DNA of 64,000 nt from Candidatus Sysuiplasma jiujiangense (GCA_019721075.1 JAHEAD010000003.1:1-64000); one strand, 5' to 3'; shown: positions 2,783 to 57,545, counted from the first letter of the stretch. A program made the numbers and translations. Notes: a model not told the origin generated them from the sequence alone.

Positions 2783-2820
2783 GTAAACGCACCAAAGGGG
2801 CCGAATCCCTCCACGCCCGC
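2783..2820 (+). repeat. att-like cassette junction 1 (GTAAACGC-N11 plus tRNA 3' fragment)
   Basis: GTAAACGC-N11-CGAATCCCTCCACGCCCGC; same layout at 3725 and 4710. Confidence 0.8.
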
Positions 2821-2969
2821 CATGTTAAGGCAGCTGTCGACCTATTGGTTCCGCTGCTGTTTTGAGTCAAGGGTTCCAGCCCTTTTGATCCCACGTCTCC
2901 ATTCCACAACTTGACTTGGGAAAGGAGCGAGCACTGCGTGCTGACAAAATATGAGCTGTCCTGATACCG

Positions 2970-3371
2970 TCAAAAACTCAGCATTTCGAGATTTGTTTCC
3001 TTTTCAATGACTGCAAAGTGCCTGATGTCGTTGGTCAATATTACACATCCGCTATTCAGGGCCTGTGCTGCTATGAGTATGTCCATATCGGGAACTCTCC
3101 CGCCCTTTAATGAAAGCCTTGCCATCATATCAGAAGCAGTTCTTGAGTCGTCATGAGTAAAAGGCAATGTTGCTGCATTGTTGAAAAACGCGCTAACCTC
3201 CTTATAATGGGATTTCAGGCTTTTCCCTTCTGAAAACCTTTCGCCCATCAATACTTCGTATGCGCATAATGAGCCAGTATAGATCTCGTCTGCCTTTTCA
3301 ATTGCAAGAAGGACCTTGGTGTTGTTGGCAAACAACTCTATTATAGCCGAAGAATCGAGAAACAGTTTCAC
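2970..3371 (-). CDS. vapC: VapC PIN-domain toxin
   Basis: LFLDSS...E...DILIAAQAL...LTND PIN motifs. Confidence 0.9.
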   Translation of the reverse strand: MKLFLDSSAIIELFANNTKVLLAIEKADEIYTGSLCAYEVLMGERFSEGKSLKSHYKEVSAFFNNAATLPFTHDDSRTASDMMARLSLKGGRVPDMDILIAAQALNSGCVILTNDIRHFAVIEKETNLEMLSF

Positions 3372-3574
3372 AGTCTCGCCTTGAGACCACTTCTTACCTT
3401 CAACACTGCCTTATGCAGTTCCAGAGCTTCATTCCTGTCGATCAAACCCGCGAATTTCAAAATGGACACTTTGTTGGTCTGCTTTGTGCTATCAGCCAGC
3501 TCAGAGAGAAGTTCGGAAAAGCTCTTGTTTCCCTTGATTCTAATGAGTTTTTCGTAGGCCTGGTCGTTGATCAT
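3368..3574 (-). CDS. vapB: VapB (DUF217-like) antitoxin
   Basis: (KTI)MINDQAYEKL...KSFSELL...FAG; overlaps the toxin start by 4 nt. Confidence 0.85.
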   Translation of the reverse strand: MINDQAYEKLIRIKGNKSFSELLSELADSTKQTNKVSILKFAGLIDRNEALELHKAVLKVRSGLKARL

Positions 3575-3606
3575 AATTGTCTTAATATTACCACCTTAGT
3601 GTTATA

Positions 3607-3646
3607 TGTATACAATCTGTATACAGTCTGTATACAATCTGTATAT
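3607..3646. repeat. 11-bp tandem repeat TGTATACA(A/G)TC, about 3.5 copies; likely TA operator array
   Basis: Seen directly in the vapB promoter; each unit holds the palindrome TGTATACA. Confidence 0.7.
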
Positions 3647-3724
3647 TTAGCTATCCCTCTTTATTCCCGCAAAACAGTCCTCTTCGAAATTCGGAAAGAG
3701 GGGAGGAGCCTGAAAGGATACGAT

Positions 3725-3762
3725 GTAAACGCGCTTCTTGAGTCGAGTCCCACCACGCCCGC
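3725..3762 (+). repeat. att-like cassette junction 2
   Basis: GTAAACGC-N11-CGAGTCCCACCACGCCCGC. Confidence 0.8.
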
Positions 3763-4003
3763 TCTGTTCAGGCGCGCGCCCGTTTATTTCTTCGATTTCC
3801 CCTTCGAGTCGAAAGGCATAATTCAGTCCTTACTTTCCGCTTAGGAGAGTCGTCTTCTAAAAAGATTGGATGTTGCCTGTTTCGATCCTGTCAGTAGTCT
3901 TCTGTTGCCCAAACACAGAATCCAGCCTGCCAGAAAACCGGACCGTGCGTTCGGCAGGCCCATGCCAAGTGATATAAGTGTGTGCACACATACACATACT
4001 TGT

Positions 4004-4237
4004 ATGGCAACGAAAAATATCTCCATCACAAATGAAGCATACGAGTCACTGAAACGAGAAAGGAGGGGGAATGAAAGTTTCACTGAAGTCATCCTCAGAT
4101 TGGCCCATACGAGGGGCAGCCTGTCAGATTGCTTTGGGATCTGGAAGCTGACAGATCATGAGGAGACCAAAATCAATATGGAGCTGTCGAAGGGATGGCA
4201 AGCGATGAGGGAGAGGATCAGGAATGAAGTGCCTTGA
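4004..4237 (+). CDS. vapB: VapB (DUF217-like) antitoxin
   Basis: MATKNISITNEAYESLKRERRGNESFTEVILRL; palindrome GTGTGCACAC upstream. Confidence 0.9.
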   Translation: MATKNISITNEAYESLKRERRGNESFTEVILRLAHTRGSLSDCFGIWKLTDHEETKINMELSKGWQAMRERIRNEVP

Positions 4238-4616
4238 CACAGACTTCCTGATAGCCATCCTGAGAGGGAAACCTGAGGCAAGGGGCAAGCTCAGAGAGCT
4301 GGATGACGAGGGTAGGCAGGCAACCACGATAGTAAACTCGTTCGAGCTCTTCTATGGCGCTCACCGCTCAAGGGATAAGAAAGGAAGCGTACGGAAGGTG
4401 AAGAATCTTCTGGAAAGACTTGACGTACTTCCACTGAGCATGGAATCTTCGGAGCGGGCGGGAGAAAACTCGGCTTACCTGGCTTCACAGGGGGAATCTG
4501 TCGACTTTCGAGATGCCATGATAGCTGCTGTTGCAGTATCGAATGGTCTTACGCTGGTAACAAACAATAAGAACCATTTCTCACGCTTCCAAGACTTGGA
4601 ACTTGAATCATGGTGA
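4224..4616 (+). CDS. vapC: VapC PIN-domain toxin
   Basis: CLDTDFLI...EL...DAMIAA...LVTNN.NHF. Confidence 0.92.
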   Translation: MKCLDTDFLIAILRGKPEARGKLRELDDEGRQATTIVNSFELFYGAHRSRDKKGSVRKVKNLLERLDVLPLSMESSERAGENSAYLASQGESVDFRDAMIAAVAVSNGLTLVTNNKNHFSRFQDLELESW

Positions 4617-4709
4617 AGGACAATGAGCGGAAGTTTCTCCACGAGAAGTGTTCACTTCATTCACAGACTTCGGCTCCGCTGGACAAATGCATCTCAAGCG
4701 TGACACTGT

Positions 4710-4747
4710 GTAAACGCATTAAGAGAACCGAATCCCGCCACGCCCGC
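4710..4747 (+). repeat. att-like cassette junction 3
   Basis: GTAAACGC-N11-CGAATCCCGCCACGCCCGC. Confidence 0.8.
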
Positions 4748-4835: not shown

Positions 4836-5279
4836 TCAAAACAAGAGGCAATGATCTTCAATCTGCTCTTGCCGTTCCGGATGCAGTTTATAACCCAGTG
4901 TCCTGAAATCGGAATCGAATGCGAACACGTCAGTTATCCCGAGAGCGTCCATGGCTACTGAACTTGAGCAGTCTGCAAAACTCAGCATCCTGTCTTTGAA
5001 TCTGAGGAGCTTTTCCAGTGCGAGGGAAAAGTCGTTCTCGCCAATCCGGAGGGTCTTCACGTTTGAGCTCTGAGCGACAGACCCGGCAAAGCGCGCGGCC
5101 AATTCCGTTCCCTTCCTGATCCTCAACAGGGTATATGTTTCTGCAAGAACGTAATCCGTTGTGATCATCTTACCGAATTCGCCGGACGATATGGCTTCGA
5201 GGAAAGCTATTGCAGGAGCATGGTTGATGTTGTCGGCCACGGCGAGAGCATACCATGCGCCAGTGTCGGCGAATATCAT
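4836..5279 (-). CDS. vapC: VapC PIN-domain toxin
   Basis: IFADTGAWYAL...LSFADCSS...FAFDSDF. Confidence 0.9.
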   Translation of the reverse strand: MIFADTGAWYALAVADNINHAPAIAFLEAISSGEFGKMITTDYVLAETYTLLRIRKGTELAARFAGSVAQSSNVKTLRIGENDFSLALEKLLRFKDRMLSFADCSSSVAMDALGITDVFAFDSDFRTLGYKLHPERQEQIEDHCLLF

Positions 5280-5644: not shown

Positions 5645-6640
5645 TCAGAAATTGCGAATCAGAAGTTCAAGAGCGCCGGTCCGGCCGGAACCGTTGCAGT
5701 TTATTGCACGCAGGGCCTTCAATTTTTCATAGTAATAATTATGTCCCGCAGGTCTCGTCCTGTCGAAGAGCCTTTTGACGAAAGCCGAATCAGCATTGCT
5801 CACAACAACCTTGCAGCCTCTTTCCGTTAGTATGCTGACAATCTCAGCAAGCCTTGCCTGATCGGCTCCGGTAAACAGAGAGGCGTTGTAACCTGTAAAA
5901 CCCCTGTTGCTGTCAGAGTAGTAAGGCGGATCGAGATAAACAAAATCGTTCTTTCCTGCATTCTGAAGAAGTACTTCGGCATAATCACGCCGAAGCAACT
6001 CGATCCCCTCCCTGTTCAATAGGGCATGAATATTCCTGAGGTTCTTTTCATGGAACAGTGTAACGTCCGGGTAGTCCCCGTAAGGGACGTTGAACTCCCC
6101 TTTGCTGTTGACCCTGTACAGGCCGTTGAATGAGGTCTTATTCAGGAAAATAAACCATGCGGCCCTTTCGACAGGACTGGACTCAAGACCGGGCGGTAGT
6201 GAGCGGATACTGGTATAGAATAATTTTTTGTCTGATCTGCTGTTACGAATAGCCCTGAAATCCCTTTGAAGTCCTGTGAGCTGCCCGATGAGGTTGCCCA
6301 AATCATCGCGTATCACCTCATATGCGTTGATCAGATCGGCATTCAAATCAGAGACTGTTGCCTTCAGGGATGGTTTCAGGTACGCCAGGTGAAAAAAGAC
6401 GGATCCGCCACCCAGGAAGGGCTCAAAATAGCGATTGAAGGATTTCGGAAAATAGCACTCCAGGCGCCTGATGAGCTGAGTTTTGCCCCCTGCCCACTTT
6501 ACAAACGGAGTGCACTTCGGCACATCATGAGGAATGCGGTGCGTCGCCCTGCCACGGCGGCTGCTCATTGCCGGGACCGAAGCATGGAGCAATCTGGTTC
6601 CGCCTGACATCGAATCTTTACTCCCCGGGATAACTCGCAC
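5645..6640 (-). CDS. dam: Dam-family (D12 class) N6-adenine DNA methyltransferase
   Basis: PFVKWAGGK, YFEPFLGGG, FNGLYRVN and FVYLDPPY; true start may be near 6568. Confidence 0.92.
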   Translation of the reverse strand: MRVIPGSKDSMSGGTRLLHASVPAMSSRRGRATHRIPHDVPKCTPFVKWAGGKTQLIRRLECYFPKSFNRYFEPFLGGGSVFFHLAYLKPSLKATVSDLNADLINAYEVIRDDLGNLIGQLTGLQRDFRAIRNSRSDKKLFYTSIRSLPPGLESSPVERAAWFIFLNKTSFNGLYRVNSKGEFNVPYGDYPDVTLFHEKNLRNIHALLNREGIELLRRDYAEVLLQNAGKNDFVYLDPPYYSDSNRGFTGYNASLFTGADQARLAEIVSILTERGCKVVVSNADSAFVKRLFDRTRPAGHNYYYEKLKALRAINCNGSGRTGALELLIRNF

Positions 6641-48322: not shown

Positions 48323-49387
48323 TCAGAGAACAAATCTCCTGAGTTCAAGATAGTCTACGGCCGAACCGCCGGTACGTGCGAAAAGTATCTCTTTCCTCAC
48401 ACCATGCGCTAGCCGTACAGTACCTGAAATGTCGGGCCAGGTTGATACGTAACCGGGGGGAACGGCAATGACCAGGTACTTCGCATGCGCCTTTTCCGGG
48501 TCATCGTCATACGCCCTGAAATGCGATCCGTACTTGAAGCCCGTCTTTACAATGAACCCCCTGCCTTTGAGATCCTCGTAAACTGAAACCTTCTGGCCGA
48601 ATGCAGGATCCAGTCTTTGAGACAGGTCCACAAGAGAGTTGAGCGGAACATGCCGCCCGGTCTTTGCGCTCGTAAGTCTCAGGCATTTTGCCGCCATCAG
48701 ATGGACAGCTTCTATAAGAGACAGCTGCAGCCCGCTGCCGAGTCTGTTACCGTAAAAGCCTTCGGCTCTCAGCGTGTCTGCGCCTTCGCCGTCTGGAATT
48801 ATTACCCTGTCGGACAACAGTATGCCGGAAAATTGGCGGGAAAGTTTTTCAGCAGCGTGTGCCCGGGGCTTCTGTGTCCTGATTCTGTAGTAGGTGATAT
48901 CGCCTTCCTCGTCCACAACTGACATGACAATCTCCTTTCCGGTGCCTTCGCTCCCCTTTGCGGCAGAAATAAGGAGGTCTATATCGAAAAGCTGCCGTTC
49001 GGATGCTACAATCACATAGGCTTCCGGAGATGCATTCTTGGGTGTGTCGCCCCTTCTGTAAAGGGTGAAATCAATTCCGTTTTCCTCATCCTCTGAAAGA
49101 TTGACGATTACGCCGCTCCGCCTCATGTCGCTGTATACAATATACCTGACTTCGAAATTCCTTATCCTCCTGGAAGCGTATGTTACAAGTTCACCGAAGC
49201 CCATTGCCCTGCCTCCGGGACCGGCGATATTCAGCCTTTCGCTCTCGAAGAGATACAGCGCCTCAAGCAGGTTCAGCTTGAGAGAGCCTCCGCTCTGCGG
49301 CTCGCCAAAGCAGCCCTTGTTGTGTATCCTGCTTGCTTCCGACTCATCCTTTATCAGTGCAGAGTCCTTCAGGAATGTCGCGACCAT
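48323..49387 (-). CDS. endA: tRNA-splicing endonuclease (two-unit, alpha2-size)
   Basis: KTGFKYGSHFRAY...HAKY...RLAHGVRK; duplicated unit. Confidence 0.93.
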   Translation of the reverse strand: MVATFLKDSALIKDESEASRIHNKGCFGEPQSGGSLKLNLLEALYLFESERLNIAGPGGRAMGFGELVTYASRRIRNFEVRYIVYSDMRRSGVIVNLSEDEENGIDFTLYRRGDTPKNASPEAYVIVASERQLFDIDLLISAAKGSEGTGKEIVMSVVDEEGDITYYRIRTQKPRAHAAEKLSRQFSGILLSDRVIIPDGEGADTLRAEGFYGNRLGSGLQLSLIEAVHLMAAKCLRLTSAKTGRHVPLNSLVDLSQRLDPAFGQKVSVYEDLKGRGFIVKTGFKYGSHFRAYDDDPEKAHAKYLVIAVPPGYVSTWPDISGTVRLAHGVRKEILFARTGGSAVDYLELRRFVL

Positions 49388-50592: not shown

Positions 50593-50663
50593 GCGGCTGT
50601 AGTCTAGTGGTAGGACTGAAGCTTCCCAAGCTTCAAACTCGGGTTCGAATCCCGGCAGCCGCA
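50593..50663 (+). tRNA. tRNA-Gly(CCC)
   Basis: Acceptor GCGGCTG/CAGCCGC; GAAGC-TTCCCAA-GCTTC; GGTTCGAATCC. Confidence 0.97.
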
Positions 50664-50791
50664 CATTGTATTTCTGAGCACCAAACACGACCAGGTGACC
50701 GCGTCTCCACCCAAGTGGCTGAAGTGGGTTTGGACCTATAGCGGTGGTGGGTAGGGTCAATCTTTATAGCTTAATAAATTAATCTATATCC

Positions 50792-51022
50792 ATGGCAAAG
50801 CTAATCGCGATTTCGGAGGATGTGTACAACAGACTTAGCAAACTCAAGGAAAGGGAGAAATCAAGGTCATTCACAGCAGTCATATCTGAACTTCTAGAGG
50901 CTAAAGAGAGAGATATCACGGATCTGTTTGGCGCTTGGAAGATGAGTGAAAAGGAAGCATCCGAACTAAATAGGCGGATCAGAAAAGAGAGAAGAGAGTC
51001 GTTTTCGAGAAGTGGTTTATAA
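50792..51022 (+). CDS. vapB: VapB (DUF217-like) antitoxin
   Basis: MAKLIAISEDVYNRL...SFTAVI...FGAW. Confidence 0.9.
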   Translation: MAKLIAISEDVYNRLSKLKEREKSRSFTAVISELLEAKERDITDLFGAWKMSEKEASELNRRIRKERRESFSRSGL

Positions 51023-51023
51023 C

Positions 51024-51407
51024 ATGACAATTTTCGATACTAACATTGTTATTGACTATCTGAGGGGGAAGCAGCAAGCTTCGGAGATTATGGCGGATAA
51101 ACACTCCGAGATAGCAATTACAGTTATCACTGGTTACGAACTGCTCAAAGGTTACAGAACTAAGAAGGAAGAAACGACCGTCAACGAGTTATTAAACAGA
51201 GTCAGGATATACTGCATGGACAACAAGTCAATGCGCGTGTCAGGCAGCCTATACCGAGAATTGAAGAGCCGCAGAAAATTGAAGAATGAAGCGGATGTGT
51301 TGATTGCCGGCATTGTCCTGGCAAACAACGAAACTCTCATTACGGCAGACAGTGACTTCTCTGAACTTGAGGAAGCAATGGGTGAAAGCCTAATACTGCT
51401 GGAATAG
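51024..51407 (+). CDS. vapC: VapC PIN-domain toxin
   Basis: IFDTNIVIDYL...DVLIAG...LITADSDF. Confidence 0.92.
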   Translation: MTIFDTNIVIDYLRGKQQASEIMADKHSEIAITVITGYELLKGYRTKKEETTVNELLNRVRIYCMDNKSMRVSGSLYRELKSRRKLKNEADVLIAGIVLANNETLITADSDFSELEEAMGESLILLE

Positions 51408-51434
51408 GCAAATCCCAATTATGAAGCACAAACC

Positions 51435-51510
51435 CAGATTCGAACCTTAATGCGTATATCCGGGAGCCGCACACATTCAAAGATCGCAGAAAATTCGAAC
51501 TTGGAGTGAA
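51435..51510 (+). repeat. att-like junction A (arm plus tRNA-Gly 3' fragment)
   Basis: CAGATTCGAACCTTAATGCGTAT-ATCCGGGAGCCGCAC...ATTCGAACTTGGAGTGAA. Confidence 0.8.
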
Positions 51511-51714
51511 TAGTTGCTCCCGTGAAGTCCTGATACCTGAGATTCTAAGTCGCCATATCTTGGAATGCGAATAACCTGAACGAGACGCTCCAATCACTGG
51601 TATGGCGTGAAATGCAGAGTCCGTTCCAGGCGCTGCAATCCACAACGAGTGTCGGATAAATTACCATTATACCAGCAGAAAGATTAAATGGCATTATGGT
51701 ATATACATAGATCA

Positions 51715-51981
51715 ATGGAAGAAATAGCCGGCATAGACAGGGCGGGTAGGATAGTAATACCGAAGGAAATCCGAAAGGCGGCCGGAATCGACGAAGGTGC
51801 GAAGATTCTTATCACGATCTCTGGAGGCGGTCGCATAATACTCCAGAAATTGGATGTGAAATCAATAGCTGCGCGCCTTGAAAAAGAACTGGAAGGCAAA
51901 GACATCGATGAAATAACCAGCCGTATCAGGAAGGACGTAAATGCGCTTATCAGAAAGGCCTATCCGGTCCTTTCTCCTTGA
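51715..51981 (+). CDS. AbrB/MazE-type antitoxin
   Basis: IDRAGRIVIPKEIRKAAGI. Confidence 0.9.
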   Translation: MEEIAGIDRAGRIVIPKEIRKAAGIDEGAKILITISGGGRIILQKLDVKSIAARLEKELEGKDIDEITSRIRKDVNALIRKAYPVLSP

Positions 51982-52414
51982 TACAAACGTCTTTGTAGCT
52001 GCTGTGAGGCATCCAAGCAGGGAAACAGGCACACTTCGCTTCCTACTGGAAGTTATACAGAATGACAATTTGTCACTTGTTGGAAACGAATTTTGGGTAG
52101 AGGAGATGCTGCGTTATGCAGAGGAATTTCATTCCGAAACAGCAGCCTTGCTTGTTGAAGCACTACTCGGCAGGGCGCGTATGATACAGGTTGGAAACAA
52201 CTTCGTTTCCATATGTACCAAATATATGCCTGCAAACGATCCGGCAGACATTCTTCATGCAGCTACTTGCCTTCAGGAACGTGCAATCCTCATCACCAAT
52301 GACAAACACTCCAATCGGATAAGTGATGAGCACATCATCGAGGTCTGGAGCATAACCAAGGCCATCAGGTCCGGCATTGTAACGGCCAAAGCCGTCCATC
52401 ATGCTAAAGACTGA
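51941..52414 (+). CDS. vapC: PIN-domain toxin
   Basis: LLDTNVFVAA...DILHAATC...LITNDKH. Confidence 0.88.
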   Translation: MRLSERPIRSFLLDTNVFVAAVRHPSRETGTLRFLLEVIQNDNLSLVGNEFWVEEMLRYAEEFHSETAALLVEALLGRARMIQVGNNFVSICTKYMPANDPADILHAATCLQERAILITNDKHSNRISDEHIIEVWSITKAIRSGIVTAKAVHHAKD

Positions 52415-52483
52415 AATCGACCGCTTAATGCAAAATGGCGCTGGTCATTTAAACGTGTTCTCTAAGCATGTACCATCCAATCT

Positions 52484-52560
52484 CAGATTCGAACCCTGAT
52501 ATGTATATCCCGGCAGCCGCACATAGTCCACACTGGCCTGAGATTCGAACCTAAAGTGAA
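52484..52560 (+). repeat. att-like junction B
   Basis: CAGATTCGAACCCTGATATGTAT-ATCCCGGCAGCCGCACAT (exact match to the tRNA-Gly end)...ATTCGAACCTAAAGTGAA. Confidence 0.85.
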
Positions 52561-52634
52561 CGGAAAGTCTGGGGCCCCTTTCGCAATGTCTAAAATCAGG
52601 GCTACACACCCTACCAGAGAAATGCGACGCATTT

Positions 52635-53084
52635 TTACGGAGATTCCTTACCGGGTTCTCTCAACCATGGGGTATAAACAAGACCTAGCAGGATGCCTTC
52701 TGGGCTGAGAAATCTGGAGACGATCTGACCGTAAGGCTCCTTGTACGAGTCCAGGAGGAGTGTGTGACCCTTTCTTTTCATTTCTTCAGAGGCCGCTTTC
52801 ACATCTTCTACTTCAAACTCCAGCCACGCCTGCGGTCTGGGGATATCATCCGGCCAAATCTTTCTTCCAAAACAGCCTTCTGCTGCCAATGAAAGTGGCC
52901 ATATGGCAAACCCTTTGCAACCATCAACATTCTGACCGTGCATATACCCCCCCTCATATTCTTTGAATTCTATTTCAAGATCCTCCGAGTATAATTTCCT
53001 GGATAGGGATAAGTCATCAGTTACGGGTCCAAAGCCCGCTATAAACAATATTTTCATTGAGTTTGAAAGCTGGGTCAATGCCAT
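52635..53084 (-). CDS. VOC/glyoxalase family protein
   Basis: FIAGFGP...WLEFEVEDV...EPYGQIVSRFLSPEG. Confidence 0.85.
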   Translation of the reverse strand: MALTQLSNSMKILFIAGFGPVTDDLSLSRKLYSEDLEIEFKEYEGGYMHGQNVDGCKGFAIWPLSLAAEGCFGRKIWPDDIPRPQAWLEFEVEDVKAASEEMKRKGHTLLLDSYKEPYGQIVSRFLSPEGILLGLVYTPWLREPGKESP

Positions 53085-53534
53085 AAGTCTTATTGTAATT
53101 GCAGCATTATAGGCTCAATAGCCTATTTCTTGAACCTATGAGAGATCGAACAGGTAGTCGGAGGACTCCCTCGTCTCTGATATCCCGTTTTTCATGGAGT
53201 AATCTCCTGAGAAGCAGCTTATGCCTTAGCCACTCATTAGCAGTTAGCCGATTGCGATGAGTGGGCTCCAATTCACACGTTTTCCGATGCCAAGTATGTT
53301 TTGTTTCGACACTGCTCGTCTTCTTTAAGGAAGACGAGCTTTATTTGAAGGAAGGAACTTCACACTCAGGTTGAAACAACAGGCGCAATTATCCTGTTTC
53401 CTTATGGAAGAGCATGGTCAGTAGACTTGTAGACTTTTTCACCATTTTTGTCGCCCGTCAACTTCTATGAGCTTACGTGTCAACCTTAGTAAATGAAAAC
53501 ACTAAATATATGAAAAATAATAATTGTTTTTGAT

Positions 53535-53771
53535 ATGTCTAGTAAAAGCAAAATATCCAGGGGATTCCTGACAGTCGTTCCAAAAGAGGTGCGCAGGAAA
53601 GTCGGCCTCAAAGAAGGTGATACAATTGAATGGACTGTCAATGGAGAGTCGATAAGAGTCCTGCCGCACAAGAAAGTGTGCATTGACGACATTATCGCCA
53701 TCGCATCCCATGGCGGGGATGCGGTGGTTTCCAAGAAAGAAATTCAGGCGGGAAAGCGTGATCGTCGCTGA
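53535..53771 (+). CDS. AbrB/MazE-type antitoxin
   Basis: SKISRGFLTVVPKEVRRKVGLKEGD. Confidence 0.9.
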   Translation: MSSKSKISRGFLTVVPKEVRRKVGLKEGDTIEWTVNGESIRVLPHKKVCIDDIIAIASHGGDAVVSKKEIQAGKRDRR

Positions 53772-54144
53772 CTCCTCATATTTCATAGCGCTTGCCGACA
53801 AGAAGGATCAGTGGCATCGTAATGCTGTTGCAGTCAAAAGCCGGATTCCGCAAGAGTTCAAGATTTCGACACTGACTGTATCTGAAGCGGTTACCGCAAT
53901 CGGATACAGAGCCGGAGGAAAAGCAGCAAGGACACTTTATGATTATTTCGCCGACAACTGTTCAGTGGAGACTGTTGACAGACAATTGATGGATCTGGCC
54001 ATGACTGTTCACCTCAGGTTCGACGGAATCCTTTCTGTTGCCGATTCGGTTTCTGCCGCGATAATGACCAGGGATGGATTCAGGCAAATAGTGTCTTTTG
54101 ATAGCGACTTCGACAAGATCAAGGGGATACAACGTATCTACTAG
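53758..54144 (+). CDS. vapC: VapC PIN-domain toxin
   Basis: VADSSYFIAL...LSVADS...SFDSDFD. Confidence 0.9.
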   Translation: MIVADSSYFIALADKKDQWHRNAVAVKSRIPQEFKISTLTVSEAVTAIGYRAGGKAARTLYDYFADNCSVETVDRQLMDLAMTVHLRFDGILSVADSVSAAIMTRDGFRQIVSFDSDFDKIKGIQRIY

Positions 54145-54289
54145 GCAGGCGCGCTCATTACTGCTGACCAACTCAGGAAATTGCCAGCCACAGAGTGTGC
54201 CTTTGTCCCTGCAGGCGGAGCAAGGTGTCCAGGTCTCTCACGATTAGTGGTCGAGAAGTCTGCCGCATTTCCTTAATGATTCCGTGAAG

Positions 54290-54331
54290 GAATCGAACCT
54301 TGATGCGTATATTTCGGCAGCCACACATAGT
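54290..54331 (+). repeat. att-like junction C
   Basis: GAATCGAACCTTGATGCGTAT-ATTTCGGCAGCCACACATAGT. Confidence 0.75.
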
Positions 54332-54436
54332 TCTGGTTCGGATTCACCTGCGATCAGATGGTTTCATGAACGCTGAATGGAAATACACCCTCATGTGATG
54401 AGCGCATCCTACATTTTTCAACCGCCCGGAGTAACC

Positions 54437-54551
54437 AGTAGATGAAAACATTAAACAAATGAGACAATAATTATTATTGATATGTCTGGCAAAAGCAAAA
54501 TATCCAGGGGATTCCTGACAATCGTTCCGGGAGAGGTGCCCAGGAAAGTCG
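54437..54551 (+). pseudogene. Truncated duplicate of the AbrB antitoxin promoter and 5' end (copy of 53488-53604)
   Basis: MSGKSKISRGFLTIVPGEVPRKV, then homology ends. Confidence 0.8.
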
Positions 54552-54842
54552 ATCGGAAAAGCTTAATCAATACCTCCGGAATATCCGCTTGCTGTGACAC
54601 GAAATAAAAGGTGCGAACTCTGCGGGAACGAGTTTGTGTGCGGCGGCCTGTCAGGATGCTGGTGCAGAAACATCAGCATATCCGCACAGAGGAGACAGAT
54701 TCTTTCCTCAATAGCAGAGGATTGTGTCTGCCGGAATTGCATTTCGGATAAAAAATGATCCGGCCAGAACAAATAACAGTGACGGGAGTCCCGTTACTGC
54801 AAACGCGGAAATCCGTAATGCCGAAGAACGGATGCACATACA

Positions 54843-55628
54843 ATGACCTCAAATACCTACCCGACTGGAAATCACTCAAGAGCCGCGTCTAAATTCGTCG
54901 AGCTCTTCAGCAGTGAGAAGAGGATCGTTGCCATACTGCTTGTTGGATCCTGCGCGCGGGGATCAGCGAGCCCGGACTCATGTCTGGACATAACAGTCAT
55001 GATGGACGATGAACGGGATGCAGATGTTTTCGCAAAGCATGTAGAGAGCATCTGGAACACCACGGAGGAAAGTTCTGAACTGCAACGGACAGGCAGATTT
55101 TCGAACCTCGACCTCAACTTCACCGATGGGAAATTCAGACCTGGCAAGAGAGGCTGGACTTCAGGACCGGACTCTTTCGAAATTGAAGTGGGCAATACTT
55201 ACGTCTACTCTGTGCCGCTGTTTGACAGGGACGGGGCATTTGAAGAACGAGGAAGGGCATTTCTGCCCTATTACGATGATGAGCTGAGAAAGGAAAGACT
55301 CGCAAATATCGAGAAATATTTCTACAACAACCTTGACCACATACCGCTTTACGTCAGGAGAGGACTGCATTTCCAGAGCCTGGAGAGACTGATCAATGCC
55401 TCCAGGGAATATCTGCAGGCACTCTTTGTTTACAGCAGAATTTATCCAATTTCCTACGACAAATGGATCAGATTCCAGCTCGTGGATATGCTGAAGAGAT
55501 CTGACATTTATTTCGAACTTGTTGAAATGTTCCAGATAAAAAGGATCGAGAGCAACGAGCTCATTGACAAGAGCGCCAGGCTGAGGGACATGGCGGAGAG
55601 AGATCTGGGGTTCTCCGACTTCGGCTGA
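54843..55628 (+). CDS. Nucleotidyltransferase-domain protein
   Basis: LVGSCARG...SCLD with a helical C-terminus. Confidence 0.75.
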   Translation: MTSNTYPTGNHSRAASKFVELFSSEKRIVAILLVGSCARGSASPDSCLDITVMMDDERDADVFAKHVESIWNTTEESSELQRTGRFSNLDLNFTDGKFRPGKRGWTSGPDSFEIEVGNTYVYSVPLFDRDGAFEERGRAFLPYYDDELRKERLANIEKYFYNNLDHIPLYVRRGLHFQSLERLINASREYLQALFVYSRIYPISYDKWIRFQLVDMLKRSDIYFELVEMFQIKRIESNELIDKSARLRDMAERDLGFSDFG

Positions 55629-55684
55629 ACCTGTGAGACTCCTTTTGATACTGCACCCCGCTTTTCATTGCACGGAATCAGATA

Positions 55685-55927
55685 TCAATCAGATATCAGC
55701 CTGGAGCCGGACTCGGTTATGAATACAGTGAAATCGTCAGGTCCGTTTTCTTCGACAAGTATCGCCTCGTTCTCACTGAGCTTGTGAATCCTCTTTGCAA
55801 GGTCTGCGTATGCTATGCCTTTTACAACCTTTCCTAGCTCAAAAAGGAGCTCTTCCTTGTCAATTCCAGCCTTTCCTTTTTTGCTTGCGATCTTGAGGAT
55901 GTCTATGTCAATTGCGCTGAGATTCAC
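55685..55927 (-). CDS. Small winged-helix-like protein
   Basis: IDIDILK...VFITESG. Confidence 0.6.
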   Translation of the reverse strand: MNLSAIDIDILKIASKKGKAGIDKEELLFELGKVVKGIAYADLAKRIHKLSENEAILVEENGPDDFTVFITESGSRLISD

Positions 55928-56027: not shown

Positions 56028-57002
56028 TTGGCCGAAAAGAAGTTTGCACTCGGATGCGATGTGGGAGCAACAAAGGTTTCTGTCTCGCTGGGCACGCAGC
56101 CCGGCATCATTGCAGACAGGATGGTTGACAGGACGCACAGAATGGAGTCCCCTGATGAAATGATATCGGAAATATCCGGTATGGCCCACAGGATGATGGA
56201 CAAAAACCAGCTGAACATATCCGACTGCCTGGGGATCTGCTTCGCGTTCGCAGGATTTACTAACAGCGAGGAGGGTGTCATCATAACCTCTCCAAACATC
56301 AAAGGCTGGCGCAGAACACCTGTAAGGTCAATGCTGGAGAAGGAAATGAAGGTGCCTGTAATTGTTGAAAATGACGCGGACGTCGGAGCATACGGGGAAT
56401 TCAGGCATGGAGGAAGCATCAGCAGCGAAGATTTCATGTATATGACGATCAGCACCGGCATAGGCGCGGGAATTATAATCGGAGGCAGGCCGTACCATGG
56501 GCAGAATCATAACGCAGGGGAGATTGGCCATACGACTGTGCTGGCAGACGGCCCCAAATGCAACTGCGGCAAGAACGGATGCCTGGAAACATTTTCTTCG
56601 GGTCTGGGAATAGAGAGGGCTGCAAACGACAGGCTGCAGACGGAGAGAACATCTCTGAGGAGCAGGGCGGATGACAACGGAGGGAGGGTCGACGCCAGGA
56701 TTGTGTTTGAGGAGGCAAGGAAAGGAGATCTGCTTTCCCTTGAAATTGTTGATACCGCGTGCAGGTATCTGGGGATGTCGATATCCACCGCAGTCATGCT
56801 TCTCAGCCTTTCGAGTGTTGTCATCGGCGGAGGACTGTCAAACGAGGGAGAATTTCTTCGTGAAAGAGTCGAGCATCACATGAGGAAGAACATTCCCGCG
56901 GGGCCAAACGAAAATGCAAGACTCCTCGTTTCAAAGAAACCGCTTGATGTTGTCGATCTTGGCGCACTTCAGATGGTTTTCGACGCTTTCGCGGGCCGGT
57001 AA
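56028..57002 (+). CDS. ROK family sugar kinase
   Basis: DVGATK, VENDAD, GEIGH and CNCGKNGCLE. Confidence 0.93.
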   Translation: MAEKKFALGCDVGATKVSVSLGTQPGIIADRMVDRTHRMESPDEMISEISGMAHRMMDKNQLNISDCLGICFAFAGFTNSEEGVIITSPNIKGWRRTPVRSMLEKEMKVPVIVENDADVGAYGEFRHGGSISSEDFMYMTISTGIGAGIIIGGRPYHGQNHNAGEIGHTTVLADGPKCNCGKNGCLETFSSGLGIERAANDRLQTERTSLRSRADDNGGRVDARIVFEEARKGDLLSLEIVDTACRYLGMSISTAVMLLSLSSVVIGGGLSNEGEFLRERVEHHMRKNIPAGPNENARLLVSKKPLDVVDLGALQMVFDAFAGR

Positions 57003-57457: not shown

Positions 57458-57545
57458 GCCGTTGTAGCTCAGCTGGCAGAGCGTGTGGCTGTTAATTGAT
57501 GCAGCTACCATAAGGTCGACGGTTCAAATCCGTCCAACGGCGCCA
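57458..57545 (+). tRNA. tRNA-Asn(GUU) with a 12-nt canonical intron (57495-57506) and encoded CCA
   Basis: Acceptor GCCGTTG/CAACGGC; CTGT pairs with intron GCAG; GGTTCAAATCC. Confidence 0.92.

What the first reader, a model, noticed from the sequence alone, without database searches (positions are those of the whole stretch)
50593..54551. tRNA-Gly-anchored tandem array of integrase-free TA cassettes (integron-like capture system)
Seen: tRNA-Gly(CCC) is followed by three segments of about 0.8, 1.05 and 1.8 kb, each with a different TA pair (one also has a VOC gene). Each segment ends in the same hybrid site, GA(T/A)TCGAACCYTRATRYGTAT joined to a copy of the tRNA 3' end (ATCCCGGCAGCCGCAC), at about 51435, 52484 and 54290. 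A decayed fourth antitoxin follows. Established: tyrosine integrases that target the tRNA T-arm leave a displaced tRNA 3' fragment at the far end of the element. Inference: the cassettes carry no integrase but share an arm, so they look like non-autonomous cassettes stacked one after another by a trans-acting recombinase, with the tRNA as the insertion site.
Basis: partly seen in the sequence, partly recalled or inferred. Interest (0 to 1): 0.88.

Follow-up and report, generated by a model that had tools for sequence, protein, structure and literature searches.

The report
tRNA-anchored array of toxin-antitoxin cassettes
Behind a glycine tRNA gene of an uncultured archaeon lie three small toxin-antitoxin cassettes, each ending in a copy of the tRNA's tail; relatives carry them in other numbers and orders, some beside an integrase-bearing island, so they look like integrase-less cassettes moved by a borrowed recombinase.

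Summary
tRNA-Gly(CCC) at 50593-50664 is followed by three segments of 0.8, 1.05 and 1.8 kb. Each ends in a conserved 21-nt arm plus a copy of the tRNA 3' end (3 sites found, 0.02 expected). Each holds a different VapBC-type pair.

Seven of 10 genomes of the family carry the same junction. They hold 0 to 6 segments in conflicting orders, with breakpoints at the tRNA-derived core.

No cassette encodes an integrase. In a sister genus a Xer-like tyrosine integrase abuts the same tRNA and heads 6-18 kb elements that end in the same arm. The window's own genome has only 38-39% paralogs.

One metagenome contig joins the right end of cassette 2 to the left end of cassette 1 and closes on itself. That fits a circle or a tandem copy.

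My reading: an accretion array of non-autonomous, att-flanked TA cassettes, like cis-mobilizable elements (CIMEs), recombined by an island-borne integrase. It is not an integron, because it has no attC-like hairpins and no adjacent integrase. A second array built on tRNA-Arg(CCT) copies lies at window 2783-4747. Verdict: a new variant of a known kind, of moderate to high interest.

The parts
50593..50664 (+). tRNA-Gly(CCC). Its last 16-17 nt (50649-50665, ATCCCGGCAGCCGCACA) are the recombination core (attL side).
   Evidence: ARAGORN; core copies.
50666..51473 (+). Cassette A (about 0.81 kb). It has a degenerate left arm, VapB (50792-51022), PIN (51024-51407), the right arm 51437-51457 and a core copy at 51458-51473 with a 1-nt deletion.
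   Evidence: Pfam PF02697 E 1.2e-12 and PF01850 E 3.8e-13. Homologous cassettes: G005 at 81% and the end of the G002 segment at 76%.
51474..52523 (+). Cassette B (about 1.05 kb). It has a left motif at about 51491-51515, an AbrB-type antitoxin (51712-51981), PIN/PIN_3 (51941-52414), the right arm 52486-52506 and a perfect core copy at 52507-52523.
   Evidence: Pfam. It is 88% identical over 1048 nt to the last cassette of G006.
52524..54327 (+). Cassette C (1.8 kb), a composite of V and T. It has a left motif at 52541-52567, a VOC-like gene on the minus strand (52635-53084), AbrB (53535-53771), PIN (53758-54144), the right arm 54290-54310 and a core copy at 54311-54327 with 3 mismatches.
   Evidence: Pfam. 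V alone occurs in G007 and G003, and T alone in G002. Cassette C is 99.3% identical to G001:C11.
54328..54349 (+). About 20 nt (TAGTTCTGGTTCGGATTCAC) identical to the left end of the integrase-bearing elements that abut the tRNA in G006, G008 and G009. In G006 these bases encode the integrase's C-terminal tail on the other strand.
   Evidence: No integrase coding remnant lies beyond it (tblastn).
54437..54607 (+). Decayed copy of the T module's upstream region and the 5' end of its AbrB gene (truncated 41-aa ORF at 54482-54607).
   Evidence: the repeat finder families D1 and D7; blastn 85% over 117 nt.
54594..55628 (+). Rest of the variable region: a Cys-rich CWC protein (54594-54758) and a 261-aa nucleotidyltransferase (54843-55628). 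G002's array lacks both.
   Evidence: Pfam. A 99-100% identity patch with G001:C11 ends at about 55590. Synteny with G002 resumes at 55716.
55685..55927 (-). Conserved 80-aa gene, followed by the ROK kinase at 56028-57002. This is the chromosomal right flank of the variable region.
   Evidence: Homologues flank the arrays of G001:C11 and G002.
2783..4747 (+). Second, independent array. Three copies of the tRNA-Arg(CCT) 3' end lie at 2802, 3744 and 4729, each preceded by a GTAAACGC arm. They bound VapB/PIN cassettes at 2973-3574 (minus strand) and 4004-4613 (plus strand). A PIN gene (4839-5279, minus strand) follows.
   Evidence: The tRNA itself is at G000:C11:2735-2810.

Best explanation
This is an accretion array at the 3' end of tRNA-Gly(CCC). 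It was built by site-specific recombination of a Xer-like tyrosine integrase that small genomic islands of this archaeal family (Thermoplasmata, 'Ca. Sysuiplasmataceae') carry. Each 0.8-1.8 kb cassette is a non-autonomous element. It consists of a left motif of about 45 nt, a self-stabilising toxin-antitoxin (or other small) module, a 21-nt right arm, and a 17-nt core identical to the tRNA tail. A circularised cassette would therefore carry a minimal attP of about 85 bp (arm, core, arm). An integrase supplied in trans, or in cis by an integrase element inserted in the same array, can insert such circles at the tRNA or at any core copy. It can also excise one or several cassettes between two cores. 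The TA pairs keep the cassettes from being lost. In the window's genome the cognate integrase is not found and two of the three core copies are decaying, so this copy of the array is probably mostly fossil. The two perfect cores (the tRNA and site 2) still appear to recombine in the natural population. Shown: the repeat anatomy; variable content with breakpoints at the core; an integrase element with the same arm at the same tRNA in relatives; alternative junctions in metagenomes. Inferred: that this integrase catalyses the events; the circular intermediate; action in trans; origin of the cassettes by internal deletion of integrase elements.
For: (1) Anatomy. Across 18 junctions from 8 array haplotypes, mean identity to consensus is 0.84 in the right arm and 0.88 in the core, against 0.43 in the outer flank, although the cargo is unrelated. 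(2) Variable occupancy. A 34-nt junction pattern (up to 3 mismatches) hits 15 sites in 7 of 10 family genomes and 0 for the reversed control. Arrays hold 1 (G001, two haplotypes), 3 (window, G003), 4 (G002) and 6 (G006) junctions. (3) The same cassettes sit in conflicting positions. B precedes V in the window, V precedes F and P in G003, and F and P precede B in G006. Loss from one ancestral order cannot explain this cycle. (4) Integrase. In G006 a 334-aa PF00589 protein (E 1.1e-27) converges on the tRNA, its last codons overlapping the core. It opens an 18-kb island that ends in a consensus arm plus core. Orthologues at 95% (G009) and 91% (G008, abutting the tRNA) exist. The G009 element is about 6.3 kb and has an AbrB/PIN pair next to its right arm. 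Of 116 ORFs scanned in cassette regions of relatives, 0 hit PF00589. (5) Sites are best kept where the integrase is present. G006 has 3 perfect 17-nt cores and one with 1 mismatch; genus g1 cores carry 0-3 or more mismatches. (6) Population data. In run X19 an 1888-nt contig (2 mismatches to the window) starts with 12 nt of B's right arm plus the core and A's left end, and ends with B's arm plus the core. Its first 30 nt equal its last 30 nt. The same runs hold tRNA|C, tRNA|integrase-element and other-cassette|A junctions. (7) A 99-100% identical patch (52690-55590) is shared with G001:C11, whose flanks are 57-84% identical and which lacks cassettes A and B. (8) A second TA array on tRNA-Arg(CCT) copies lies in the same genome.
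Against: No cognate integrase is in G000 (97% complete). The best tblastn hits are 38-39% identical paralogs, one of which abuts tRNA-Gly(TCC). No experiment or read-level evidence shows catalysis. The X19 junction comes from one assembled contig of one of the 4 runs laid. It cannot tell a circle from a tandem duplication or another cassette order, and library chimeras at the 18-nt identity are not excluded. Cassette identities between genera (76-88%) are close to that of the neighbouring housekeeping gene (78-82%), so most of the variation may be old. Internal decay is common: a truncated T copy, an antitoxin-only cassette in G002, and composite segments without a site between modules. Integrase elements themselves end in a TA pair. 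Both facts fit simple decay. The hybrid left end in G001:C74 shows that arm-to-arm homologous recombination also acts. No right-hand att remnant was found at the end of the variable region.
Confidence: 0.6

Rival explanations
1. Pure decay. Each segment is what is left of a separate, once autonomous integrase element that integrated at the tRNA and then lost everything but its addictive TA pair. The segments have never moved as small units, and differences among relatives come from independent integrations and deletions.
For: Integrase elements of 6.3 and 18 kb use the same site and arm. The G009 element ends in an AbrB/PIN pair right next to the arm. Decay products are visible: a truncated antitoxin at 54482-54607, V plus a T tail in G003, an antitoxin-only segment in G002. 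The CIME literature describes exactly this path (PMC5704250, passages read).
Against: At least six unrelated cargo types (A, B, V, T, F, P) recur as units of 0.8-1.3 kb with arm and core at the right end and, for most, the ~45-nt left motif. They keep the same size in two genera: A is 809 and 812 nt, B is 1049 and 1050 nt, F is 1297 and about 1262 nt. In the integrase element the left motif overlaps the integrase's 3' end. Random deletions that remove the integrase should therefore usually remove the left motif too. The same units stand in conflicting orders. A B-to-A junction exists in a metagenome.
Confidence: 0.22
2. Shuffling by homologous recombination. The arrays were seeded by integrase elements, but present-day gain, loss, duplication and reordering of cassettes run through the host's general recombination (RadA) or replication slippage between the ~40-85-nt repeated junctions. 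No site-specific enzyme is involved.
For: G000 has no cognate integrase. G001:C74 has a hybrid left end: its first ~14 nt match cassette B's left end and the rest matches cassette C's. That points to a crossover inside the left motifs, not in the core. The 99-100% patch shared with G001:C11 fades over about 170 nt at its left edge instead of stopping at the core.
Against: The tRNA context and the site-2 context share only the 18-nt core, yet the X19 contig joins them exactly there. The right arm is as conserved as the core across unrelated cassettes (0.84 against 0.88), which is unexplained if it has no protein partner. P'-like motifs also stand behind tRNA-Gly(CCC) in another family of the class (L074, L088).
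Confidence: 0.13
3. A true integron: an IntI-type integrase captures promoterless cassettes through folded single-stranded attC sites at an attI site next to its own gene.
For: It is an array of ~1-kb cassettes, many holding TA pairs, at one fixed site. Integrons have been reported in archaeal MAGs (10.1101/2022.02.06.479319; search listing and abstract start only).
Against: There is no integrase on the 141-kb contig. The junctions fold no better than shuffles on either strand (z from -0.54 to +0.80, 6 folds). The repeat is a tRNA 3' end. The related integrase is closest to archaeal XerA (4a8e E 1.1e-18) and far from IntI4 (2a3v E 4.3e-7). Genes lie on both strands.
Confidence: 0.02

Closest known systems
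Cis-mobilizable elements (CIMEs) and tandem accretion of ICE/IME at tRNA genes in streptococci (review PMC5704250; passages read)
   Same: The elements lack integration genes but keep attL and attR. They stand in tandem with an integrase-bearing element at the 3' end of a tRNA gene. Any pair of att sites can recombine, so neighbours can be captured and co-mobilised.
   Different: Here the host is an archaeon with a Xer-like integrase and no conjugation genes are seen. The units are far smaller (0.8-1.8 kb, mostly one TA pair), more numerous (up to 6 junctions), recur as conserved units in two genera, and carry a short conserved motif at both ends.
Tycheposons and tRNA-flanked genomic islands of Prochlorococcus (10.1101/2020.12.28.424599; passages read)
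   Same: Tyrosine-recombinase elements integrate at tRNA genes. Neighbours are separated only by a partial tRNA copy. Degenerated remnants and further partial tRNAs lie in the islands. Cultures hold excised and tandem-junction subpopulations.
   Different: As defined there, tycheposons carry their own integrase and usually a replication module plus up to 10 kb of cargo. The passages I read do not describe integrase-less ~1-kb TA cassettes as recurrent units.
Integrons, including sedentary chromosomal integrons with TA cassettes (recalled) and archaeal integrons (10.1101/2022.02.06.479319; search listing only)
   Same: Function: a fixed chromosomal platform that stacks small, exchangeable cassettes, many of them TA pairs that stabilise the array, using a tyrosine recombinase not encoded in the cassettes.
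   Different: There are no attC hairpins, no adjacent IntI or attI/Pc, the attachment site is a tRNA tail, the arm-core-arm sites look double-stranded, and the cassettes appear to carry their own upstream regions.
Archaeal tRNA-integrating plasmids and viruses (SSV-type and pNOB8-type integrases) and 'cryptic integrated elements' (PMC3119797 and PMC6563490; passages read)
   Same: Integration is into tRNA 3' halves. Successive integrations at one tRNA are known. Captured elements degenerate. vapBC pairs concentrate in variable regions.
   Different: The integrase stays intact when integrated, so it is not the SSV-type partitioning class. Those papers define elements by their integrase (2.6-98 kb). 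Arrays of att-flanked integrase-less TA units are not described in the passages read.
MITEs versus autonomous transposons (analogy; recalled)
   Same: A short non-autonomous derivative keeps only the ends that the enzyme needs and spreads using the enzyme of an autonomous relative.
   Different: The chemistry here would be site-specific recombination at one tRNA site, not transposition. These units also carry a functional selfish cargo.

Membership tests
Integron | IntI-type tyrosine integrase gene directly beside the array (attI, Pc) | tested here: not met
   G000 has 7 PF00589 matches, none on contig C23. No serine recombinase is on C23 either. Upstream of the tRNA lie a UPF0147 gene and the tRNA-intron endonuclease gene.
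Integron | Cassette ends are attC sites: imperfect palindromes that fold as single strands | tested here: not met
   Six folds (3 junctions, both strands, DNA parameters) gave z from -0.54 to +0.80 against 200 shuffles each.
Integron | Cassettes mostly promoterless and co-oriented with Pc | tested here: not met
   The VOC gene lies on the minus strand. In the second array, 2 of 3 modules are on the minus strand. Promoters were not assayed.
tRNA-targeting tyrosine-integrase integrative element (accretion array) | Each unit bounded by direct repeats of the tRNA 3' end, with the intact tRNA at one end | tested here: met
tRNA-targeting tyrosine-integrase integrative element (accretion array) | Element encodes its own integrase | tested here: not met
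   No integrase is in the window's cassettes or in 116 ORFs of relatives' cassette regions. The feature is met only by the 6.3-kb and 18-kb elements of G009 and G006.
tRNA-targeting tyrosine-integrase integrative element (accretion array) | Occupancy varies among relatives with breakpoints at the att core | tested here: met
   No truly empty site of this family was seen, except G004, which has no junction in 10.8 kb.
CIME (cis-mobilizable element; definition in PMC5704250) | No integration or transfer genes, but attL and attR retained | tested here: met
CIME (cis-mobilizable element; definition in PMC5704250) | Arose by decay of an autonomous element | tested here: inconclusive
   The arm is shared with integrase elements that end in a TA pair. 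However, the cassettes' left motif differs from the integrase-type left end apart from GATWCGAACCT.
CIME (cis-mobilizable element; definition in PMC5704250) | Excises or moves with the recombinase of a neighbouring or incoming element | not testable with these tools
   Indirect evidence only: the G006 array has an integrase element next to five cassettes, and a B-to-A junction contig exists in run X19.
SSV-type (partitioning) archaeal integrase | The int gene is split into intN and intC by integration | tested here: not met
   The integrated G006 gene is one open 334-aa frame covering PF00589 positions 4-171 of 172. Only its last codons overlap the core.
Type II VapBC toxin-antitoxin | Adjacent small antitoxin (VapB, AbrB or MazE type) and PIN-domain toxin genes | tested here: met
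   Three pairs in the array and two pairs plus a PIN in the second array, with Pfam E values from 1e-9 to 1e-18. Toxicity and neutralisation were not tested.

The most novel reading that the evidence does not exclude
These archaea run a dedicated cassette platform that has converged on the integron's function by other means. Single defence or TA modules, each carrying a minimal arm-core-arm attP of about 85 bp, would be captured, stacked, reshuffled and exported at tRNA genes (Gly-CCC, and with another arm Arg-CCT). The enzyme would be Xer-like integrases that travel on small defence islands. The cassettes would then be a distinct, long-lived class of non-autonomous site-specific elements rather than decay debris.
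Probability: 0.3. Interest if true: 0.8.

Novelty: new variant of a known kind. Interest (0 to 1): 0.6.

Why it matters
How the many vapBC pairs of archaea move between genomes is poorly understood. Papers on Sulfolobales only note that they sit in variable regions and are gained and lost (PMC3119797, passages read). Here the TA pairs come as discrete units with recognisable recombination ends at a defined site, and a candidate enzyme has been identified in relatives. That makes the question directly testable with an integrase assay on an 85-bp site. If the cassettes are mobilised in trans, this is a second way, beside integrons, to build exchangeable cassette arrays. It would also be a simple marker (arm plus tRNA tail) for finding such arrays in uncultured archaea. 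If they are only decay products, the locus still documents unusually orderly accretion and TA-driven retention at a tRNA gene.

Tried and rejected
- Junction pattern in JGI metagenome contigs and in IMG/VR: 0 matches each. No free plasmid or virus form was found there.
- Relatives of the G006 integrase in JGI contigs: 9 loci, at most 56% identity over short parts and at most 50% over longer ones. None was informative.
- A decayed att site at the right end of the variable region (about 55630-55690): not found by eye or with an nhmmer profile of 18 junctions.
- The window's arm motif behind other tRNAs of G000: not found.
- The junction pattern of the second array in 9 relatives: 0 exact matches.
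- kb-scale tRNA-Gly(CCC) tail copies in 19 loci of other families of the class: 0 of 19. The downstream sequence available ranged from 0.27 to 15 kb.
- attC-like folding: rejected.
- I first read G006, G008 and G009 as 'empty sites'. That was wrong: the flank is the end of an integrase element.
- Reading the 20 nt after site 3 as proof of a former integrase gene in the window: softened. Only about 20 nt are shared, G009/L038 diverge after the same 20 nt, and tblastn finds no integrase remnant on C23.
- The store of earlier findings was not open.
- An NCBIfam scan of the integrases failed on a coordinate slip and was not repeated.
- Parts of the stretch without contig cover, and depth differences, were not used as evidence.
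- Searches for prior description of att-flanked TA cassettes in archaea returned nothing specific. The library lacks most subscription journals, and no supplements were read.

Full report
**Observation**

ARAGORN places tRNA-Gly(CCC) at 50593-50664. The arm TCGAACCYTRATRYGTAT occurs three times in the 64-kb window, at 51440, 52489 and 54293. Shuffles gave 0.02 matches on average, and 0 of 100 shuffles reached 3. A copy of the tRNA's last 16-17 bases follows each arm directly:
- at 52507 the copy is perfect;
- at 54311 it has 3 mismatches;
- at 51458 it has a 1-base deletion.

In the whole genome G000 (2.29 Mb, 55 contigs; the window is C23:1-64000) the 23-nt arm pattern with up to 4 mismatches hits only these three places.

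Pfam confirms three different TA pairs:
- segment 1: VapB (PF02697) and PIN;
- segment 2: an AbrB/MazE-type antitoxin and PIN/PIN_3;
- segment 3: AbrB and PIN, plus a weak VOC/glyoxalase match on the minus strand.

The truncated fourth antitoxin is also real. Positions 54466-54551 are 90% identical to 53519-53604.

It lies about 19 nt after each core (CAGATTCGAACCTRAAnTGAACGG) and marks the left end of a cassette. A junction therefore reads arm (about 21 nt), core (17 nt), about 19 variable nt, then the left motif. GATTCGAAC occurs on both sides of the core. It is the reverse complement of the tRNA's own T-loop region.

**Relatives**

Record titles of related MAGs name them Thermoplasmata / 'Ca. 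Sysuiplasmataceae'. The order holds 10 genomes in the collection. A 34-nt junction pattern with up to 3 mismatches hits 15 sites in 7 of these 10 genomes. The reversed control hits none.

Behind the same tRNA I found the following (the letters are cassette families defined just below):

| Genome | Content behind tRNA-Gly(CCC) |
|---|---|
| G001:C74 | one junction |
| G001:C11 | one junction; it holds only the window's cassette 3 |
| G002 | four junctions |
| G003 | three junctions |
| G005 | at least one junction |
| G006 | six junctions (four strong, two decayed) |
| G007 | a cassette-type left end, then a VOC gene and an IS before the contig ends |
| G004 | no junction in 10.8 kb |

All-against-all blastn groups the cargo into recurrent units:
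- A: VapB/PIN; window 809 nt, G005 812 nt at 81% identity, and the end of a 5-kb segment in G002;
- B: window 1049 nt, G006 1050 nt, 88%;
- V: the VOC gene;
- T: AbrB/PIN;
- F: Fic/DOC;
- P: another AbrB/PIN;
- R: an unnamed unit.

The window's cassette 3 is a V+T composite. V and T also occur separately.

The orders conflict. The window has A|B|V+T, G003 has V|F|..P|T, and G006 has integrase island|F|P|..|R|B. So B comes before V, V before F, and F before B. Loss from one ancestral order cannot produce that cycle; it needs at least one insertion, duplication or rearrangement.

Of 116 ORFs of at least 55 aa scanned in the cassette regions of relatives, none hits an integrase. The hits are PIN, VapB, AbrB/MazE-type, Fic, VOC, a wHTH (DUF7343/MarR), DUF234 and an IS transposase.

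**The recombinase**

I first took the flank TAGTTCTGGTTCGGATTCAC, which follows the tRNA in G006, G008 and G009, for an empty site. It is not.

In G006 a 334-aa tyrosine recombinase (PF00589, E 1.1e-27) converges on the tRNA, and its last codons run across the core. It opens an island of about 18 kb. The island holds Dcm and Vsr, HATPase_c_3, Z1, DUF4420, AIPR, Mrr_cat and IS elements. It ends in a consensus arm plus a perfect core. Five more cassettes follow, the last being the window's cassette B.

Orthologues stand in G009 (95%, at a contig edge) and G008 (91%, abutting the tRNA). The G009 element is only about 6.3 kb. Its right arm is preceded by an AbrB/PIN pair and followed by another PIN cassette.

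The gene stays whole when integrated, so it is not the partitioning SSV type. Its closest solved relatives are archaeal XerA proteins (4a8e, 5hxy).

Genus g1, which includes G000, has only 34-54% paralogs. Two of them are informative:
- one abuts tRNA-Gly(TCC) in G000 in the same convergent way;
- one in G003 overlaps a tRNA with a CAT anticodon.

This looks like a family of integrases, each tied to one tRNA. No tyrosine or serine recombinase lies on contig C23.

The window keeps about 20 nt of the integrase-type left end just after its last site (54328-54349). No integrase coding remnant lies beyond it.

Cores are best preserved where the integrase is present. G006 has three perfect cores and one with 1 mismatch. 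In genus g1 the cores carry 0-3 or more mismatches.

**Recent exchange and population data**

Against G001:C11 the window is 99-100% identical from about 52690 to 55590. That stretch covers cassette C, site 3, the decayed antitoxin, the CWC gene and the nucleotidyltransferase gene. The flanks are only 57-84% identical, and G001:C11 lacks cassettes A and B. Synteny with G001:C11 and G002 resumes at the 80-aa gene at 55685-55927. The variable region therefore spans 50665 to about 55680.

Twenty public runs from 7 studies hold at least half of the stretch's sampled words. They are mine drainage, tailings and sediment metagenomes, and two of them may be the source. All are kept as assembled contigs. 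I laid 4 of the 23 runs listed.

In run X19 an 1888-nt contig with 2 mismatches to the window has this structure:
- it begins with 12 nt of cassette B's right arm, the core, and cassette A's left end;
- it runs through A and B;
- it ends with B's arm and the core, so its first 30 nt equal its last 30 nt.

That is what a k=31 assembler gives for a circle or a tandem repeat of A+B. (The assembler's k is recalled, not taken from a call.) The nine or so k-mers that mix arm-specific and A-specific bases do not exist in the window's arrangement. The junction must therefore be in the reads. Library chimeras are a caveat.

The same four runs also show:
- tRNA joined to cassette C;
- tRNA joined to a G002-type cassette;
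- tRNA joined to the integrase-type end;
- a different cassette end joined to A.

Contigs cannot give frequencies, and other strains contribute to them.

**Mechanism**

The simplest reading is an accretion array. An integrase element and many integrase-less cassettes share one attP design (arm, core, arm). Recombination between any two cores inserts, excises or reorders units. The TA cargo resists loss.

The right arm is as conserved as the core (0.84 against 0.88 mean identity over 18 junctions; outer flank 0.43), even though the cargoes are unrelated. That argues for a protein-binding role.

In the integrase element the left motif overlaps the integrase's 3' end. Deletions that remove the integrase yet keep the motif should therefore be rare. 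Their recurrence as same-sized units in two genera suggests that units retaining both ends persist or spread. This is the logic of non-autonomous elements.

What is not shown: catalysis by this integrase, the circular intermediate, and action in trans. In G000 itself the array may be largely fossil.

**Rivals**

- Pure decay of separate integrase elements (0.22). It fits the visible decay products and the TA pair at the end of the G009 element. It fits poorly with recurrent complete units in conflicting orders.
- Shuffling by general homologous recombination between the repeated junctions (0.13). The hybrid left end in G001:C74 and the graded edge of the 99% patch support it. It does not explain arm conservation or the junction at the 18-nt core.
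- A true integron (0.02). It fails on attC folding (z from -0.54 to +0.80), on the absence of an adjacent integrase, and on the tRNA-derived site.

**Comparison with what is known**

Re-use of one att site to form arrays is known in archaea and bacteria (PMC6563490, passages; PMC3119797, passages).

[quoted passage not shown] Tycheposon islands show tandem elements separated by partial tRNAs, remnants, and excised or tandem-junction subpopulations (10.1101/2020.12.28.424599, passages).

This locus differs in four ways:
- the units are about 1 kb, single-module, and mostly TA;
- they have short conserved motifs at both ends;
- they recur across genera, with up to six junctions in a row;
- they occur in an archaeon, with a Xer-like integrase.

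Four full-text searches found no description of att-flanked TA cassettes in archaea. The library lacks most subscription journals, and I read no supplements.

**A second array**

Copies of the tRNA-Arg(CCT) 3' end stand at window 2802, 3744 and 4729. The tRNA itself is at G000:C11:2735-2810. Each copy is preceded by a GTAAACGC arm. The copies bound two VapB/PIN cassettes, a PIN gene follows them, and GmrSD and Dam genes stand beside the array. The sequence after the tRNA in C11 nearly equals the left end of the cassette after site 3744. C11 and C23 are therefore probably joined through this array. The exact junction pattern is found only in G000 among the 10 family genomes.

**Verdict**

This is a new variant of a known kind (CIME-like accretion). 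Interest 0.6.

Noticed in passing
window 2783-4747 (with G000:C11:2735-2810): A second TA-cassette array, built on three copies of the tRNA-Arg(CCT) 3' end. Each copy is preceded by a GTAAACGC arm. It holds VapB/PIN cassettes on both strands, with GmrSD (868-2577) upstream and a PIN gene and Dam methylase (5648-6640) downstream. Contig C23 probably joins C11 through this array.
   Followed up: partly
window 52947-53000 region (C7 tract at about 52947-53953 inside the VOC gene; tract itself 52947-52953): The run of 7 C inside the VOC-like ORF differs in length among metagenome contigs of the 4 runs laid: +1, +2, +4 and -2 (table 4). The VOC ORF looks broken in G001:C11. This could be frameshift-prone or phase-variable sequence, or assembly noise.
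   Followed up: no
window 52690-55590 against L029 (G001:C11): A 2.9-kb patch is 99-100% identical between two lineages whose flanks are 57-84% identical. This points to recent exchange of cassette C and the genes behind it. The left edge fades over about 170 nt instead of stopping at the core.
   Followed up: partly
G000:C1:285892-317383 (L062, L063): A 322-aa integrase paralog (39% identical to the G006 integrase) converges on tRNA-Gly(TCC), overlapping its 3' end. A copy of that tRNA tail (2 mismatches) lies 31 kb away. This is probably an integrated island with its own, different arms. Another tyrosine recombinase and a serine recombinase lie inside it.
   Followed up: partly
L033/L044 (G006:C6, about 68.3-86.4 kb): The 18-kb integrase island is a defence island. 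It holds Dcm methylase with Vsr, HATPase_c_3, Z1, DUF4420 (PD-(D/E)XK), AIPR and Mrr_cat, plus two IS elements.
   Followed up: partly
L077 (G019), L074 (G011), L086 (G017), L088 (G036): In other families of the class, tRNA-Gly(CCC) is followed by tail copies only 70-250 nt apart, with no genes between. L077 has 104-nt tandem units. L074 and L088 carry a GGGATTYGRACCTNAGAGGAAAG motif that resembles the cassette left motif.
   Followed up: partly
L028 (G001:C74) 368-420: The left end is a hybrid. Its first ~14 nt match cassette B's left end and the rest matches cassette C's. This suggests a crossover inside the left motifs rather than in the core.
   Followed up: no
window 57458-57545: ARAGORN calls a tRNA with a 4-base anticodon (gtta), 88 nt long. 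It is probably an intron-bearing tRNA. A two-domain tRNA-intron endonuclease gene lies at 48323-49387.
   Followed up: no
L098 (G003:C19) and L097 (G001:C28): Further array pieces lie on separate contigs: junction sites flanked by IS3 and IS605/TnpB elements, a B-like PIN_3 cassette and a Fic cassette. IS insertions seem to break these arrays in assemblies.
   Followed up: partly
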